64,000 nucleotides of DNA from a virus. The position numbers and the translations under genes are program-made. The DNA lies in IMG/VR virus record IMGVR_UViG_3300046779_001269, positions 112,025-176,024 of that record; one strand, written 5' to 3'. The notes under the pieces are model-generated. The model was not told the DNA's origin and did no database searches. It worked only from the letters and a program-made list of their open reading frames with translations. Below, piece by piece: positions 31,413 to 48,332 of the stretch. The first letter of the stretch is position 1, and every line of letters starts with the position of its first letter.

Positions 31413-31434
31413 TAAAACTCCTAGTTGTTAAACA

Positions 31435-31761
31435 TAATGGTTGGTTATTCTGTTACGAGGAAACCAACCGAAACCCTAGTCAGCGTTTAGGCTGCCAATG
31501 CGAACTTTTCATCGTTTGCGTTTACTTTAATTTAGTTTTTATATCTTCTCTGATAAGTTGTCCACTTCTATACTCTTTACCCTGTCGAAACCATGACAGG
31601 CCCATTATAAAACACACTATGTGGAATCGAACCACTGACCCTTTCACTCCGTAGAGACCGCATTAATTACGCTTAGTCGCCGACTAGTGTGCTTTATGGT
31701 GGACCTGGGGGGAGTCGAACCCCCGTCCAGAATACTTTTCAAGTTGCTTCATACAACCATA
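31435..31761 (-). ncRNA. ssrA: circularly permuted (two-piece) tmRNA, tag (A)ANDEKFALAA
   Basis: acceptor piece ends GGGGGTTCGACTCCCCCCAGGTCCACCA (CCA at 31697) and precedes the coding piece starting GGGCCTGTCATGGTTTCGAC (31603); acceptor stem has G3:U; tag ORF 31519-31487; outer ends approximate. Confidence 0.92.
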
Positions 31762-31767
31762 AATCAC

Positions 31768-31796
31768 ATTATACATCAAAAAATTCTATATGTCAA
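31768..31796 (-). promoter_or_regulatory. consensus sigma70 promoter for tmRNA
   Basis: TTGACA (31796-31791), 17 bp, TATAAT (31773-31768). Confidence 0.9.
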
Positions 31797-41734: not shown

Positions 41735-41951
41735 TTTTAATCCTATTAATCAATTCATTCGCTTCTGCCAAATCCATTTCCACACAATCCAACAATTCAT
41801 GTTGCAACAGTATGGTTTCGGATTTGGCCTTTTGAAACAATTCCAGTGCATAATCAACATCATCAGGTGTTGCTTTATCCACCCATTCATCAAATTGATC
41901 CTGAGAGCAATTCATCAGAAAATTTAAATTGTCACGGTCGTGTTGGTTCAT
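41718..41951 (-). CDS. hypothetical protein
   Basis: 77 aa with ATGA overlap. Confidence 0.6.
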   Translation of the reverse strand: MNQHDRDNLNFLMNCSQDQFDEWVDKATPDDVDYALELFQKAKSETILLQHELLDCVEMDLAEANELINRIKNVGKI

Positions 41952-42154
41952 TTTGAAGAAACGTTTGTATTCTTAAACAAGAAACCGGAAAGAAGCATAA
42001 TACCCCATGCCTGCAACCAGGTGACTTCTTTCACACCTTCAATTGCACCAACAAGGCATCCGTTCCATAACATATAAACAGGCCATGAAAGTAGAAATGA
42101 AATGCCGACAACAAGGCCGACCGCCATTACGATTTTACCGATTAGTTCACTCAT
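41948..42154 (-). CDS. small membrane protein
   Basis: LWN...VTWLQAWGI motif, two TM helices. Confidence 0.65.
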   Translation of the reverse strand: MSELIGKIVMAVGLVVGISFLLSWPVYMLWNGCLVGAIEGVKEVTWLQAWGIMLLSGFLFKNTNVSSK

Positions 42155-44187: not shown

Positions 44188-45305
44188 CAGAACGCATCAA
44201 AGTTATAGGTACGGGTTTTCATACGAGAAAGAATCACGGTCAAACCATTCTTCTCAAAGATGAATTTACCTGTCTTAGAATCGAACTTAATCAAATCACC
44301 TGCGGCGAATTCTTCATCAACCCAACCATATTCAATGTTTGGTGCTTCGACTGAATACACTTCACCCTTAATTAGAGGTTTATCTCCATCGTAACCTTTT
44401 GGTGCCTTGAAAAACATATTCAAGCTGATATCGTCATTTGCCAATGGTGTACCAGTCCAGATGGACGGACTCAGGCGTTCCGCTTTGTGTTCACCACGAT
44501 ATGCCTCAACCTCATATGATGTACCACTATCAAACTCTGCCTTGACATTAAGAATGGTCAATGCTTGGTTTGGTGTTTCATCGTAACGGTTCATTTCTTC
44601 AACAGTAGCCTTCAACATATCAAAGTTGAATGCTGAGAATACGGAAGTAATGCTCACCAGTTTATCAATGTGTGATTTATTCTTCAGGTTATCTTCACAG
44701 TATTCACGGATGAATTCTGAATCCAAACCAGTGAAGTTCAAGTAATAGAAGATACGACCTGGACGGTTACGCATATGACTATCAACACGCCATTTGTCGT
44801 TACAGGTCAATAGGAACAATTTCTTGCTAGAGTAGATACCATCCAACAAGGTCAACATTGATTCTTGTTGTTCACGGTCATACACCTTTTCAAACTCATC
44901 AAACAACACAACACAAGGTTGCTCAATAGATTGAATGAATGTGTTAAACATATCACCATGCCATGGTGCGTTGATAACAATAGTTGGCACAGCATGTTGT
45001 GCAGCCAATTGAATACAGATATTCTTGCTCAACATGGTTTTACCAGAACCTTTTTCACCAGTCAGCAATACGCCGGTGGATTTATCACGGCTCAAGAATG
45101 TGCCAATGATACGGTCTGTTTTTGATTGAACATCACCATACATTTTCTTTGGTGAATCAAACGAATCAATTTGTTCAAGATACAATGGACCATCCATAGG
45201 CATCTGCTTGACCACATAGTTACCAGCAGGCAATGTCTCATGCAAGTCCATTGCTTCTTTGGTTGCCACACGGTAAGTATTACCATTCTTCAAAAAATAT
45301 GTCAT
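44187..45305 (-). CDS. AAA+ ATPase
   Basis: GEKGSGKT, VLFDEFEK, LTLLDG, NRPGRIFY. Confidence 0.85.
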   Translation of the reverse strand: MTYFLKNGNTYRVATKEAMDLHETLPAGNYVVKQMPMDGPLYLEQIDSFDSPKKMYGDVQSKTDRIIGTFLSRDKSTGVLLTGEKGSGKTMLSKNICIQLAAQHAVPTIVINAPWHGDMFNTFIQSIEQPCVVLFDEFEKVYDREQQESMLTLLDGIYSSKKLFLLTCNDKWRVDSHMRNRPGRIFYYLNFTGLDSEFIREYCEDNLKNKSHIDKLVSITSVFSAFNFDMLKATVEEMNRYDETPNQALTILNVKAEFDSGTSYEVEAYRGEHKAERLSPSIWTGTPLANDDISLNMFFKAPKGYDGDKPLIKGEVYSVEAPNIEYGWVDEEFAAGDLIKFDSKTGKFIFEKNGLTVILSRMKTRTYNFDAF

Positions 45306-45369: not shown

Positions 45370-46152
45370 TTAACCAAAATTGGTAACAAAACTATCCTGT
45401 TCTTGGTTCCAAGAATTGGCATTGTCCTGCACAGGTGCGGTAAATTCTGCCGCATCATCAGGATTTACACCAACTTCACCAACAACTTCATAACGGCAGG
45501 CACGACCCTTGCTGTTGTCATAATCGGTTGGAATGGATACAACATCACGAGGATTGATTTTAAGAATCATCACACGAGCACCACCAAAGTTACGGAGATA
45601 ACCTTCTGAACAGAAGTGCAAACCAGCCGAGCAGGTTTGTCGTGCGTCATCATTAACTTGGTTGCGTTCCATCTCCACGATTTGACCAACAGAGTTGTCA
45701 AACTTACCAGAGTAAACATCCTTGTAGTCATCACGGACTTTTTTGTATGCCAAGAAATGACCATCAGGTGTAATTGGCAGGTTATTCTTTTCCAAGAAAC
45801 CATACAATTCATTTACTGAACGGTACGATGGGTTTTGCATCAAGTTGTCCATGAAGTTAACCAATGGTTCAACTGGGAAACCTTCTTGCAACATTTGCAC
45901 CATGCGTTTAACAATGGCGCCGTGCATTTCATCACCTTTCCAAAACAACTTATCGCCTTGGATTGCCACATTACCATTGCCGTAGTTCAATACAACCTTC
46001 TTAGGATCAATGATGTTCTCAACAGTCTGCCAATCGGCAGCCTTGATAGCATCAACCACTTTTTGATAAGTGATGTGGGTTTTGCTAATTGTATGTGGTT
46101 TATTTTTGATAACGACCACAACGTTATTACCTTGAATCAGATACGGAAACAT
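45370..46152 (-). CDS. rIIB: RIIB lysis-inhibition / Rex-exclusion protector
   Basis: ITPDGHFLAYKKVR.DY.D, TCSAGLHFCS..YL, KINPRDVVSIP.DY..SKGR.C.YEV. Confidence 0.9.
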   Translation of the reverse strand: MFPYLIQGNNVVVVIKNKPHTISKTHITYQKVVDAIKAADWQTVENIIDPKKVVLNYGNGNVAIQGDKLFWKGDEMHGAIVKRMVQMLQEGFPVEPLVNFMDNLMQNPSYRSVNELYGFLEKNNLPITPDGHFLAYKKVRDDYKDVYSGKFDNSVGQIVEMERNQVNDDARQTCSAGLHFCSEGYLRNFGGARVMILKINPRDVVSIPTDYDNSKGRACRYEVVGEVGVNPDDAAEFTAPVQDNANSWNQEQDSFVTNFG

Positions 46153-46154
46153 TT

Positions 46155-48332
46155 TTAAACACCTTTCACTGTGTCAATTAAATTAATATACTCACCAACA
46201 TCACCCTCTTTTGCTGAAGTGGAGAATTTATTGACCAGAGGGTAACGGTCACTAAATTCTTTCAGAATTGTTTTATACTTACTAATCAAATCAGTAGCAA
46301 CGAGCTTTGATTCAATGCCAAAAAGTTGCATAAGATTTTTCAATGAACGATGTCCACTCATTTCAGGTAGACCAGCCATGTCAGCAAGCAAAATCTTTGC
46401 AGGACTTTTATCGTTAACAACAACATCATGCAGTTTTTGGTAATTATACTCAAAAAGTACATGTCTGTCAAGCGATGAAACAACTTCGGTTAATACCACT
46501 TTGTCGGCAATCTTTTCAATATTACCCTTGACAAAGGATTCCACATTCACCCAATTCTTCTTGGATTGGATGGCAGGCAGGTCACCTTTACGGACACCAT
46601 ACACTTGAATCTGGAATTCAGGCAATCTGGTATTCTTCAAAGCGGCAACAAAATCTGGTACAGAATAATGATACTTCAAGGAATTCCACAATGGTTCAAA
46701 ACCTTTCAACGGCATATAGTAATATGTGGTGTTGTCATCAAATTTGTCCAATGTATCAGCTGCACGCCACACATAATCTTTTGAAGAACTATGCCACGCA
46801 CTGCCGCCACGCTCTTCAACTTTCATAATGTTCACATTTTTGCCGAAACCATTACCGCCTGATTTGCGTTGGCGTTCATCTAATTGTGATACAACCATGC
46901 GTTGTGCATCTGGTGGATTTTGAATGAAGTCATAAAAACCTTTCAAATCCATTTCTTTGTTCTTGTCAATTTTATTCAACAAAACAGCATAACGAAAACT
47001 GGAATTTTTGTCTGCGTCAGCACGGAAGTGTTGTTTAGCACGTTCTAATGAACCAACCTTTGTGTCGTTTGCAATGAAGAAAACATTTGGTATTACCGAA
47101 AAGGAAATGTATTCCTCTATTTTTGTAGAGCCGTCATCATTTTTGTTACCAAAGTTTTTTGAAGCAATCTTCATGTTCTTGGCAAGTTTTTCGCCACGAT
47201 AAATGTGAAAACCACTCAATGTAATATTGAACTTGGCTGCATCAGACAAACGCATATCAATAGAATAATCACTAGACCATTGTGTCTTAGGTTCAAACAA
47301 TGGTGTGTTGTTCTTGGTTGCATAATCATTCACAGCAGCAGACCACAACGCATTGCGTTTCTTGCCATACAGGAATTGTGAACGAGTCCATGCGTTGTCA
47401 ATCACATCAGCTTCTTTGGCCAATACATCAGTCAACGCAGCATTAACTTGTTGCAATTTGTTTTTAATTGCTTCAATCGTTTGTGGAATGTAGGACAAAC
47501 CTTCACGACTTGCTTGAAAGTCCAACTCACCGATGCCAAATTCCATAACAAGGCCGCAACCCAACAATTTGCTCAAACCTTCAAGGTTCTTGTCAGCGTT
47601 AGGTACTTCAATTGGATATACAATGTTACCCATCACAGCCACAGAGCGTGATGACATAGAAATGGAATGAACACCAGGAATAATGTCCTTGGTTTCATAA
47701 TCAATTGGAGCAATGGTCAATTCACGACCAGTAAATTTTGGTTGTTGTTTGAACCAACGATAAACCTTTTTGGCTTCATCTTCAAACTTGTAAAAATCGT
47801 TGCGTTCATTCACGGAGAATTTAATCTCTACACCAGCAGGTTCGGTTGTATCTTCTTCACCCATCAGAGCAATAGAAGGCACACCTTCACCATTAATGAA
47901 AGCAGAATAAATGCCTTTGTGGCCATCTTTGATAGCAGTTACGGTGAAATTATCCGTATAACTAAATGGAGACTTAGAACCAAGACCAAGGGCGCCAATG
48001 AAAGCATTGCTATTAGTCTTAGTGGACTCAAAATAGGTGGTGTAGATATTGGTGACTTGCTCATGGTTAAGTCCTGTGCCAAAATCACGAATAGAGAAAA
48101 ATGGTTCTATTGCAGTAGGCAGGTGAACTTCAAATGGTTCGGTGTTACCTGCAGCAACATGCGAATCGACAGCGTTGCACGACAATTCACGAATAATGGC
48201 TTTAATCTTGTTGGCATACAAACCAGAAGAAAGAATGTTAAATGCCTTGGCAGAATTACGGATGCGGAATTCACCGATTTCGCCAACATTAGACAATACA
48301 GCTTCTGCCTGCGGTGCGTTGTTTAGAATCAT
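46155..48332 (-). CDS. rIIA: RIIA protein (GHKL N-terminal domain)
   Basis: AF.ILSSGLY.NKI.AIIRELSCNA.DSH, IRDFGTGL, GALGLGSKSPFSY; upstream of rIIB. Confidence 0.92.
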   Translation of the reverse strand: MILNNAPQAEAVLSNVGEIGEFRIRNSAKAFNILSSGLYANKIKAIIRELSCNAVDSHVAAGNTEPFEVHLPTAIEPFFSIRDFGTGLNHEQVTNIYTTYFESTKTNSNAFIGALGLGSKSPFSYTDNFTVTAIKDGHKGIYSAFINGEGVPSIALMGEEDTTEPAGVEIKFSVNERNDFYKFEDEAKKVYRWFKQQPKFTGRELTIAPIDYETKDIIPGVHSISMSSRSVAVMGNIVYPIEVPNADKNLEGLSKLLGCGLVMEFGIGELDFQASREGLSYIPQTIEAIKNKLQQVNAALTDVLAKEADVIDNAWTRSQFLYGKKRNALWSAAVNDYATKNNTPLFEPKTQWSSDYSIDMRLSDAAKFNITLSGFHIYRGEKLAKNMKIASKNFGNKNDDGSTKIEEYISFSVIPNVFFIANDTKVGSLERAKQHFRADADKNSSFRYAVLLNKIDKNKEMDLKGFYDFIQNPPDAQRMVVSQLDERQRKSGGNGFGKNVNIMKVEERGGSAWHSSSKDYVWRAADTLDKFDDNTTYYYMPLKGFEPLWNSLKYHYSVPDFVAALKNTRLPEFQIQVYGVRKGDLPAIQSKKNWVNVESFVKGNIEKIADKVVLTEVVSSLDRHVLFEYNYQKLHDVVVNDKSPAKILLADMAGLPEMSGHRSLKNLMQLFGIESKLVATDLISKYKTILKEFSDRYPLVNKFSTSAKEGDVGEYINLIDTVKGV

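What the first reader, a model, noticed from the sequence alone, without database searches (positions are those of the whole stretch)
31604..31696. Second tRNA-like module nested in the tmRNA intervening segment
Seen (minus strand, 93 nt): a 12-bp closing stem TAAAGCACACTA/TAGTGTGTTTTA, with a canonical T-arm GTGG-TTCGATT-CCAC one nucleotide before the 3' strand, as in tRNA acceptor/T geometry. Inside are a C-UACG-G tetraloop hairpin and a GCGT/ATGC hairpin; there is no clear anticodon arm and no CCA. Inference: the segment excised during tmRNA maturation could be a stable functional RNA (tRNA mimic, nuclease decoy or Y-RNA-like), or a decayed tRNA that seeded the permutation.
Basis: partly seen in the sequence, partly recalled or inferred. 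Interest (0 to 1): 0.7.

Follow-up and report, generated by a model that had tools for sequence, protein, structure and literature searches.

The report
tRNA-like passenger RNA in phage tmRNA spacer
The spacer that is cut out when this phage's two-piece ribosome-rescue RNA (tmRNA) matures holds a conserved, tRNA-derived small RNA; very different phages carry the same RNA between their tRNA genes, so it is probably a functional small RNA of unknown job, not junk.

Summary
Observation confirmed. Window 31696-31604 (minus strand) is exactly the 93-nt intervening segment of a circularly permuted tmRNA driven by a perfect sigma-70 promoter. It holds the 12-bp closing stem, a canonical T-arm one base before the 3' strand, and a CUC-UACG-GAG hairpin.

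The closing stem with its 4-nt tail is a generic frame of phage permuted tmRNAs and carries many unrelated inserts. The T-arm insert is a separate unit. A near-identical copy (variation only in loops, T-loop invariant) lies in 7 tmRNA spacers and about 10 tRNA-array spacers, at one copy per genome. It spans phages whose single-strand-binding proteins share only 30% identity. It is absent from 185,000 bacterial and archaeal genomes and from cultured phages.

Within the tmRNA family the spacer is as conserved as the tRNA-like domain (0.06 against 0.05 differences per site), while the rest of the gene differs at about 0.5.

Best reading: a tRNA-derived passenger RNA released by tRNA-type processing. 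Its target is unknown. It is not a tRNA, not a Y RNA, and did not seed the permutation. This scan has noted sister cases (other inserts, same frame) on other DNA.

The parts
31768..31796 (-). Sigma-70 promoter TTGACA-17-TATAAT driving the tmRNA precursor
   Evidence: 12 of 12 consensus matches
31697..31758 (-). tmRNA acceptor piece, ending in CCA at 31699-31697
   Evidence: RF04321 alignment starts at 31758; sequence read
31604..31696 (-). Intervening segment of the permuted tmRNA (the finding): frame plus insert
   Evidence: Lies between CCA and G+1 of the tmRNA; covariance model R1 scores it 107.8 bits
31685..31696 (-). 5' strand of the 12-bp closing stem (part of the frame)
   Evidence: Pairs with 31608-31619. 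One-sided C-G / U-G / U-A changes among relatives keep the pairing; 96.5% of cells paired
31679..31684 (-). Linker GUCGGC. It is invariant, holds a GG, and is complementary to the T-loop bases UCGAU (an alternative or tertiary pairing)
   Evidence: Invariant in 13 copies; alternative pairing found by RNAalifold and by the single-sequence fold of variant B
31659..31671 (-). Hairpin 1, CGUA-AUUAA-UGCG. Its loop and length vary between the two variants
   Evidence: Pairs 27-39, 28-38 and 29-37 are kept, with U-G changing to U-A
31647..31656 (-). Hairpin 2, CUC-UNCG-GAG (UACG here, UUCG in many relatives)
   Evidence: Stem invariant; only the second loop base varies
31621..31635 (-). T-arm GUGG-UUCGAUU-CCAC with the full tRNA T-loop consensus
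   Evidence: Invariant in all copies, pairwise difference 0.000; matches real phage tRNAs only over this arm
31608..31619 (-). 3' strand of the closing stem
31604..31607 (-). 4-nt tail UAAU before G+1 of the coding piece (the inferred RNase P site)
   Evidence: A 4-nt tail is present in 77 of 95 distinct phage tmRNA spacers
31429..31603 (-). tmRNA coding piece; tag reading frame at 31519-31487 (ANDEKFALAA, then stop)

Best explanation
The segment has two layers.

1. A generic frame. This is a stem of about 12 bp that begins right after the CCA of the upstream RNA and ends 4 nt before the 5' end of the downstream tRNA-like RNA. Aquatic phages use the same frame in permuted tmRNA genes and between tRNA genes.

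2. An exchangeable insert. Here it is a 65-nt tRNA-derived RNA with a 6-nt GG linker, two small hairpins and a canonical T-arm that abuts the 3' strand of the stem.

The insert is co-transcribed with the tmRNA from a strong sigma-70 promoter. It is set free by the two cuts that mature the tmRNA: RNase P at G+1, and an endonuclease or trimming activity at the CCA. The result would be a free RNA of about 85-93 nt, built as a long stem capped by a tRNA-like elbow.

I take it to act in trans as a tRNA mimic that engages a factor recognising the T-arm or elbow. It is not needed for tmRNA maturation.

Shown here: anatomy, position, conservation, independence from context, and one copy per genome. 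Inferred: excision, stability, and the trans-acting tRNA-mimic role. The target is unknown.
For: - Position exactly between CCA and G+1.
- The frame is near-universal and covaries heavily. In 95 distinct phage spacers the stem length peaks at 12-13 bp and 77 have a 4-nt tail, while the interiors are unrelated.
- The same insert sits in 7 tmRNA spacers and about 10 tRNA-array spacers, on the tRNA strand. It starts 3 nt after a tRNA 3' end and, in L128, ends 4 nt before the next tRNA.
- Exactly one strong copy (107-116 bits) in each of 5 virus records.
- The 354-kb record G003 keeps the insert in its tRNA array while its own tmRNA (L064) carries another insert. G000 shows the reverse arrangement.
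- The carriers are very distant phages: the gp32-like protein shares 30% identity.
- Within the tmRNA family the pairwise difference is 0.058 for the spacer and 0.048 for the tRNA-like domain, against 0.48-0.52 for the rest of the gene.
- Variation is confined to loops and linkers. The proposed stems differ at 0.019 and the T-loop at 0.000.
- T-arms are enriched more than 100-fold in spacers. They abut the 3' strand in most of the independent families.
- The spacer holds no ORF and has no special complementarity to the tmRNA pieces.
Against: - There are no expression or processing data. Excision and stability are inferred from what is known of two-piece tmRNAs.
- The inner helices never vary, so no covariation supports the T-arm or the hairpins.
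- Thermodynamics is ambiguous. In the common variant a rod-like fold that pairs GUCGG with the T-loop beats the T-arm fold by about 1.8 kcal/mol.
- Near-identity across phages with 30%-identical core proteins implies recent horizontal spread. The low diversity may therefore reflect youth and not only selection.
- No partner or target was identified.
Confidence: 0.55

Rival explanations
1. Cis-acting processing or folding aid ('tRNA punctuation', as with mascRNA at the MALAT1 3' end). The tRNA-like insert recruits RNase P or other tRNA enzymes to the precursor, so that the CCA end of the acceptor piece and the 5' end of the coding piece are cut cleanly. The freed piece has no further role.
For: - The module begins right after the CCA and ends 4 nt before an RNase P site, both in tmRNA and in tRNA arrays.
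- In L021 a genuine tRNA-Asn occupies the same place between the tmRNA pieces.
- The T-arm abuts the stem as in tRNA.
- PMC11915505 states that permuted tmRNA precursors are cut by tRNA-processing enzymes.
Against: - About 87% of distinct phage tmRNA spacers with the same frame have no T-arm; they hold ORFs or plain hairpins. The T-arm is therefore not needed for maturation.
- The geometry is wrong for the RNase P ruler. The 12-bp stem plus a 4-5-bp T-stem makes 16-17 bp, against 12 bp in tRNA. [quoted passage not shown]
- This reading does not explain why unrelated phages keep exactly one copy wherever it sits.
Confidence: 0.17
2. Neutral relic or hitch-hiker. A tRNA gene once captured in the spacer decayed to a T-arm stump. 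It now spreads passively because the near-identical closing-stem sequences are hot spots for recombination between co-infecting phages.
For: - Cassette-like exchange is evident: the same insert sits in different frames and neighbourhoods and in very distant phages.
- Intact and half-decayed tRNAs occur in other spacers (L021, L111, L120).
- One truncated copy exists (L137).
- There is no covariation.
Against: - The changes seen avoid every proposed stem and the T-loop.
- The spacer is as conserved as the essential tRNA-like domain within one gene family whose other parts differ at about 50%.
- There is a single copy per genome and no proliferation.
- Loop changes keep the UNCG class, UACG to UUCG.
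Confidence: 0.18
3. Y-RNA-like tether (YrlA type). The long stem binds a Ro60/Rsr ring and the tRNA-like part recruits an effector nuclease.
For: It combines a long basal stem with a T-arm, and YrlA RNAs occur in some phages (PMC4201824).
Against: - No Rfam Y RNA or YrlA match at E up to 10.
- No TROVE-domain gene in the complete 176-kb genome, while the control genomes do respond.
- No D-arm and no GNCGAA motif.
- The RNA ends enter at the acceptor side, not at the anticodon side as in YrlA (PMC4201824).
Confidence: 0.03

Closest known systems
Intervening sequence of circularly permuted (two-piece) tmRNA genes (Keiler, Shapiro and Williams 2000; Rfam RF04321, RF01850; PMC11915505)
   Same: It lies between the CCA of the acceptor piece and the 5' end of the coding piece, and is presumed to be removed by tRNA-processing enzymes.
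   Different: Intervening sequences are treated as discarded spacers. PMC11915505 mentions as 'unique' a single case with an intact tRNA-Ala inside. Here the spacer holds a conserved non-tRNA, T-arm-bearing RNA that also exists outside tmRNA genes.
Small stable RNAs co-transcribed with phage tRNA clusters (T4 RNAC and RNAD, also called species 1 and 2; function still unknown, PMC9697503)
   Same: A non-tRNA small RNA embedded in a phage stable-RNA operon and released by tRNA-type processing. Its function is unknown.
   Different: No sequence similarity: the spacer part of the query matched none of 50,697 phage records. This RNA is bracketed by a conserved 12-18-bp frame and moves between tRNA arrays and a tmRNA gene.
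mascRNA at the MALAT1 3' end, and tRNA punctuation of mitochondrial transcripts (from my own knowledge)
   Same: A tRNA-like fold placed directly after the mature 3' end of another RNA, so that one set of tRNA-processing cuts makes both products.
   Different: The acceptor-like stem is 12 bp, not 7. There is no evidence of RNase P cleavage at its 5' end or of CCA addition. It is bacterial-viral, not eukaryotic.
Bacterial Y RNAs of the YrlA type (PMC4201824)
   Same: A tRNA-derived domain with a canonical T-arm on a long stem, also found in phages.
   Different: There is no Ro60 gene, no D-arm, no model match, and the topology differs.
The tRNA-like domain of tmRNA itself, and CDS-less tmRNA-like RNAs of phages (DS6A; cited in PMC11915505)
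   Same: An acceptor-type stem plus a T-arm, without an anticodon arm.
   Different: No G3-U70 alanine identity, no CCA, and no similarity to the adjacent tRNA-like domain beyond the T-loop consensus.

Membership tests
tRNA (Rfam RF00005 clan CL00001; ARAGORN) | Detected by tRNA models | tested here: not met
   ARAGORN calls no tRNA here. The best clan match on the spacer alone is tRNA-Sec at 14.2 bits, E = 1.2, against a gathering score of 47.
tRNA (Rfam RF00005 clan CL00001; ARAGORN) | 7-bp acceptor stem with a discriminator and a CCA (or a CCA-addition site) | tested here: not met
   The stem is 12 bp and the tail is UAAU.
tRNA (Rfam RF00005 clan CL00001; ARAGORN) | Anticodon arm (5-bp stem, 7-nt loop) and D-arm | tested here: not met
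   The interior holds only a 6-nt linker, a 3-4-bp hairpin with a 5-nt loop and a UNCG hairpin.
tRNA (Rfam RF00005 clan CL00001; ARAGORN) | T-arm with G53-C61 and loop U54 U55 C56 R57 A58, adjacent to the acceptor 3' strand | tested here: met
   GG-UUCGAUU-CC, separated from the 3' strand by one A. If that A is counted as an A-A fifth pair, there is no spacer..
Intervening segment of a permuted tmRNA | Lies between the CCA of the acceptor piece and G+1 of the coding piece of a model-confirmed permuted tmRNA | tested here: met
Intervening segment of a permuted tmRNA | Absent from the mature RNA | not testable with these tools
   Needs RNA-end mapping.
Closing-stem frame of phage tRNA and tmRNA operons (noted earlier in this scan, e1-5375641) | A stem of near-constant sequence that starts at the CCA end and brackets varied inserts | tested here: met
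   The AAARCAYAYU / ARURUGYUUU strands are shared by tmRNA frames with many inserts and by array frames CCAUAU...AUAUGG, which carry an A-C mismatch.
YrlA / bacterial Y RNA | Matches the Y RNA / YrlA covariance models | tested here: not met
   No such match at E up to 10.
YrlA / bacterial Y RNA | Encoded next to a Ro60/Rsr (TROVE) gene | tested here: not met
   No TROVE match in the complete genome; the controls do respond.
mascRNA-like 3'-end processing element | RNase P cleavage at the 5' end of the tRNA-like fold creates the upstream RNA's mature 3' end | not testable with these tools
   The position fits, since the stem starts at the base after the CCA. The 12-bp stem departs from RNase P's 7+5 ruler.

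The most novel reading that the evidence does not exclude
Aquatic phages run an RNA 'cassette' system. A conserved closing stem at CCA ends serves as a plug-in site in tRNA operons and in split tmRNA genes. This T-arm RNA is one of its cargoes: a new class of trans-acting tRNA mimic, for example a decoy or sponge for a host factor or defence nuclease that reads the tRNA elbow. It is traded between unrelated phages because it pays.
Probability: 0.25. Interest if true: 0.8.

Novelty: new variant of a known kind. Interest (0 to 1): 0.55.

Why it matters
Intervening sequences of two-piece tmRNAs are treated as waste. Here the 'waste' is as conserved as the functional tRNA-like domain, and it is shared as a single-copy unit by phages that are otherwise barely related.

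If the RNA is stable and active, three things follow:
- Split tmRNA genes and phage tRNA arrays would double as expression platforms for small RNAs.
- An undescribed family of tRNA-derived phage RNAs would be added.
- There would be a concrete handle (one 65-nt RNA, one frame) for asking what phages do with tRNA mimics. That question has been open since the T4 RNAC and RNAD species were found.

If it proves inert, it still documents cassette-like recombination at CCA-proximal stems.

Tried and rejected
- Rfam at gathering scores, and at E up to 10 on the spacer alone: only tRNA-Sec at 14.2 bits. No tRNA, YrlA or ribozyme family.
- blastn of the locus against 50,697 phage records: matches cover only the tmRNA tRNA-like parts, never the spacer interior.
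- Metagenome scan with AGTCGGCGAC-gap-GGTTCGANTCC: 120 rows, of which about 114 were chance matches in GC-rich DNA or ordinary tRNAs and only 6 were true copies.
- Bacterial and archaeal genome scan for the core motif: zero matches.
- Covariation in the inner helices: impossible, because they never vary. RNAalifold on 9 copies returned a rod-like fold without the T-arm. Minimum-energy folds disagree between the two variants, so the interior fold (a three-way junction with the GACU/GGUC stem) stays a proposal.
- Search for an ancestor tRNA among 326 phage tRNAs: similarity only over the 14-16-nt T-arm.
- Complementarity of the insert to the tmRNA pieces: no better than shuffles. No ORF in any frame.
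- The idea that the inner 7 bp of the stem is the insert's own acceptor: rejected. The same stem sequence brackets unrelated inserts, so it belongs to the frame.
- Literature searches for tRNA-like RNAs in tmRNA spacers or phage tRNA arrays: only the single tRNA-Ala remark in PMC11915505.

Full report
**What is at the coordinates.** The window is the last 64 kb of a complete 176-kb IMG/VR virus record. Its neighbouring genes are T4-like: gp32-type single-strand-binding protein, gp59-type helicase loader, PhoH, an exonuclease and an endolysin. On the minus strand a 12-of-12 sigma-70 promoter (31796-31768) precedes a circularly permuted tmRNA. ARAGORN calls it with tag ANDEKFALAA, and Rfam gives RF04321 at 123 bits and RF01850 at 142 bits. 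The finding's 93 nt (31696-31604) are exactly the intervening segment between ...UCCACCA and GGGCCUG.

- a 12-bp closing stem (31696-31685 with 31619-31608, one G-U);
- the T-arm GUGG-UUCGAUU-CCAC (31635-31621), one A before the 3' strand;
- a CUC-UACG-GAG hairpin;
- a UAAU tail, with no CCA and no anticodon arm.

The fold is moderately better than chance (z = -2.3). The T-arm motif is far rarer in shuffles: 0.095 expected per 95 spacers.

**The closing stem is a generic frame.** These gave 95 distinct spacers.
- Nearly all begin, at the base after the CCA, with a stem whose sequence covaries freely. Its length peaks at 12-13 bp.
- 77 of 95 end with a 4-nt tail (UGAU or UAAU) before G+1.
- The interiors are unrelated to one another. 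They include small ORFs with a Shine-Dalgarno sequence and ATG that encode hydrophobic peptides, plain hairpins, T-arm RNAs, tRNA-like RNAs with both D and T arms (L111, L120), and in L021 an intact tRNA-Asn.

The stem and tail therefore belong to the precursor architecture, and the interior is an exchangeable insert.

**T-arm inserts recur.** T-arms occur in 12 of 95 spacers, in about eight independent sequence families. In most, the T-arm abuts the 3' strand of the closing stem, as in tRNA.

**This insert is a unit of its own.** Two further IMG/VR scans and one metagenome scan found the same interior in two settings:
- in 7 tmRNA spacers (window, L115, L039, L028, L106, L127, L126);
- in about 10 places outside tmRNA genes (L122-L125, L128/L214, L242, L245, L140, L177, and a truncated copy in L137).

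The copies outside tmRNA genes lie in tRNA arrays on the tRNA strand. They start 3 nt after a tRNA 3' end (L122, L123, L128). In L128 the copy ends 4 nt before the next tRNA. There the frame is CCAUAU-AAAAACAYACUA...UAGUGUGUUUCU-AUAUGG, an 18-bp stem with one A-C mismatch that pairs the tRNA's CCA.

A covariance model of the module (R1) finds exactly one strong copy (107-116 bits) in each of five virus records. The complete 354-kb record G003 keeps the insert in its tRNA array, while its own permuted tmRNA (L064) carries a different insert. The present phage does the reverse: its 28-tRNA array (G000:41762-49835) has array-type frames with other inserts.

The carriers are only distantly related, since the gp32-like protein of G000 shares 30% identity with those of G002 and G003. 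The motif is absent from one genome each of about 185,000 bacterial and archaeal species. The spacer part of the locus matches none of 50,697 cultured-phage records.

**Conservation.** In the tmRNA family (five members), mean pairwise differences per site are:

| Region | Difference per site |
|---|---|
| Spacer | 0.058 |
| tRNA-like part of the coding piece | 0.048 |
| Acceptor piece | 0.105 |
| Helix 2 / pseudoknot / tag region | 0.48 |
| 3' region | 0.52 |

Across 13 copies, variation falls in the hairpin-1 loop (two length variants), the second base of the UNCG loop (UACG or UUCG), one U/C that keeps pairing, and the junction base. The T-loop never varies and the proposed stems differ at 0.019. 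This is the pattern of a constrained structured RNA.

Two caveats apply. The inner helices never vary, so there is no covariation. Identity across such distant phages also implies recent lateral spread, so low diversity is partly youth.

**Fold.** The register CGU/RCG holds in both. I propose the following layout:
- the closing stem;
- a 6-nt GG-containing linker in place of a D-arm;
- a GACU/GGUC stem that branches into hairpins 1 and 2;
- the T-arm.

Energies do not decide between this and other folds. In the common variant a rod-like fold, in which GUCGG pairs with UCGAU of the T-loop, is 1.8 kcal/mol better. That complementarity could equally be an elbow-type tertiary contact.

**What it is not.**
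- Not a tRNA. ARAGORN makes no call, and the best Rfam clan hit is tRNA-Sec at 14.2 bits against a threshold of 47. The stem is 12 bp, and there is no anticodon arm, D-arm or CCA.
- Not a Y RNA. There is no model match and no TROVE gene in the genome, with controls positive. The topology also differs from YrlA (PMC4201824).
- Not coding, and not antisense to the tmRNA.
- Not the seed of the permutation. The same frame holds unrelated inserts in sister tmRNAs, and the insert lives elsewhere in other phages.

**Mechanism.**
- Shown: position, frame, conservation, portability and copy number.
- Inferred from established knowledge of two-piece tmRNA maturation (Keiler et al. 2000; PMC11915505): RNase P cuts at G+1 and the CCA end is freed, which releases the frame with its insert.
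- My best reading (0.55): the released RNA is a tRNA-derived passenger acting in trans as a T-arm or elbow mimic, with an unknown target.
- Rivals: a cis-acting processing aid in the manner of mascRNA (0.17). Most sister spacers lack a T-arm, and the stack of 16-17 bp does not fit RNase P's 12-bp ruler. The other main rival is a neutral relic spread by recombination at the frames (0.18).

**Relation to what is known, and to this scan.** PMC11915505 reports one intact tRNA-Ala inside a permuted tmRNA spacer and calls it unique. The T4 RNAC and RNAD species are passenger RNAs of tRNA clusters whose function is still unknown (PMC9697503). I found no paper describing T-arm RNAs in tmRNA spacers or the shared frame.

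Earlier notes of this scan, on other genomes, describe the shared closing stem and other passenger inserts. I rediscovered the frame independently, and I add a new insert family with its reciprocal tmRNA/tRNA-array distribution. A sequence look-up found this insert noted only in this genome.

Noticed in passing
G000:C1:41762-49835 (outside the window, same genome): An array of 28 tRNAs on the minus strand. Many spacers of 85-245 nt are structured RNAs. Array-type frames (CCAUAU-AAAAACACAUUA...AGUGUGUUUCU-AUAUGG/A) lie at 44458-44562 and 41924-42010 and carry other inserts. A different T-arm insert sits in a frame at about 47560-47684.
   Followed up: partly
G000:C1:46273-46402 and 46110-46197: Two tRNA-like RNAs that ARAGORN does not call. 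One ends in ...GGCCUCCACCA and begins GGGGGCA, an alanine-type acceptor with G3-U70, and has a degenerate T-arm. The other has a CAAAGG-UUCGAGU-CCUUUG T-arm and ends in GCUGCACCA.
   Followed up: no
L008, L020, L027, L049, L068, L076, L081 and others (spacers of phage tmRNAs): Spacers that hold a Shine-Dalgarno sequence, an ATG and a short hydrophobic reading frame of about 20-25 codons. The closing stem overlaps the ribosome-binding site.
   Followed up: no
L021:6617-7016: The two pieces of a permuted tmRNA are embedded in a tRNA array (Asp, Tyr, Thr, acceptor piece, tRNA-Asn(GTT), coding piece). An intact tRNA replaces the closing-stem spacer.
   Followed up: partly
L059 spacer; L111 and L120 spacers: L059 has two T-arms in one spacer. 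L111 and L120 have a cloverleaf with a genuine D-arm and T-arm, an oversized 'anticodon' loop and a 10-11-bp acceptor-like stem. ARAGORN calls L111 as an oversized tRNA-Tyr that overlaps the tmRNA.
   Followed up: partly
L126:1-140 (minus strand): The tmRNA that carries this module has an aberrant T-loop in its own tRNA-like domain (GCGGG-GGCAGUG-CCCGC in place of UUCGA). It may be a degenerate gene or an assembly artefact at a contig end.
   Followed up: no
L137:844-946 and L140:1560-1580: L137 holds a copy of the module truncated just after the T-loop and preceded by another frame in tandem. L140 has a CCAUAUGG palindrome, which looks like an empty frame, directly upstream of the module. Frames can therefore stand in tandem without tRNAs between them.
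   Followed up: no
window 31429-31470 (minus strand): The tmRNA ends in a GGUUGGUU...AACCAACC hairpin with no clear U-run terminator. The endolysin-like gene (31412-30948) starts about 20 nt downstream and may be co-transcribed.
   Followed up: no
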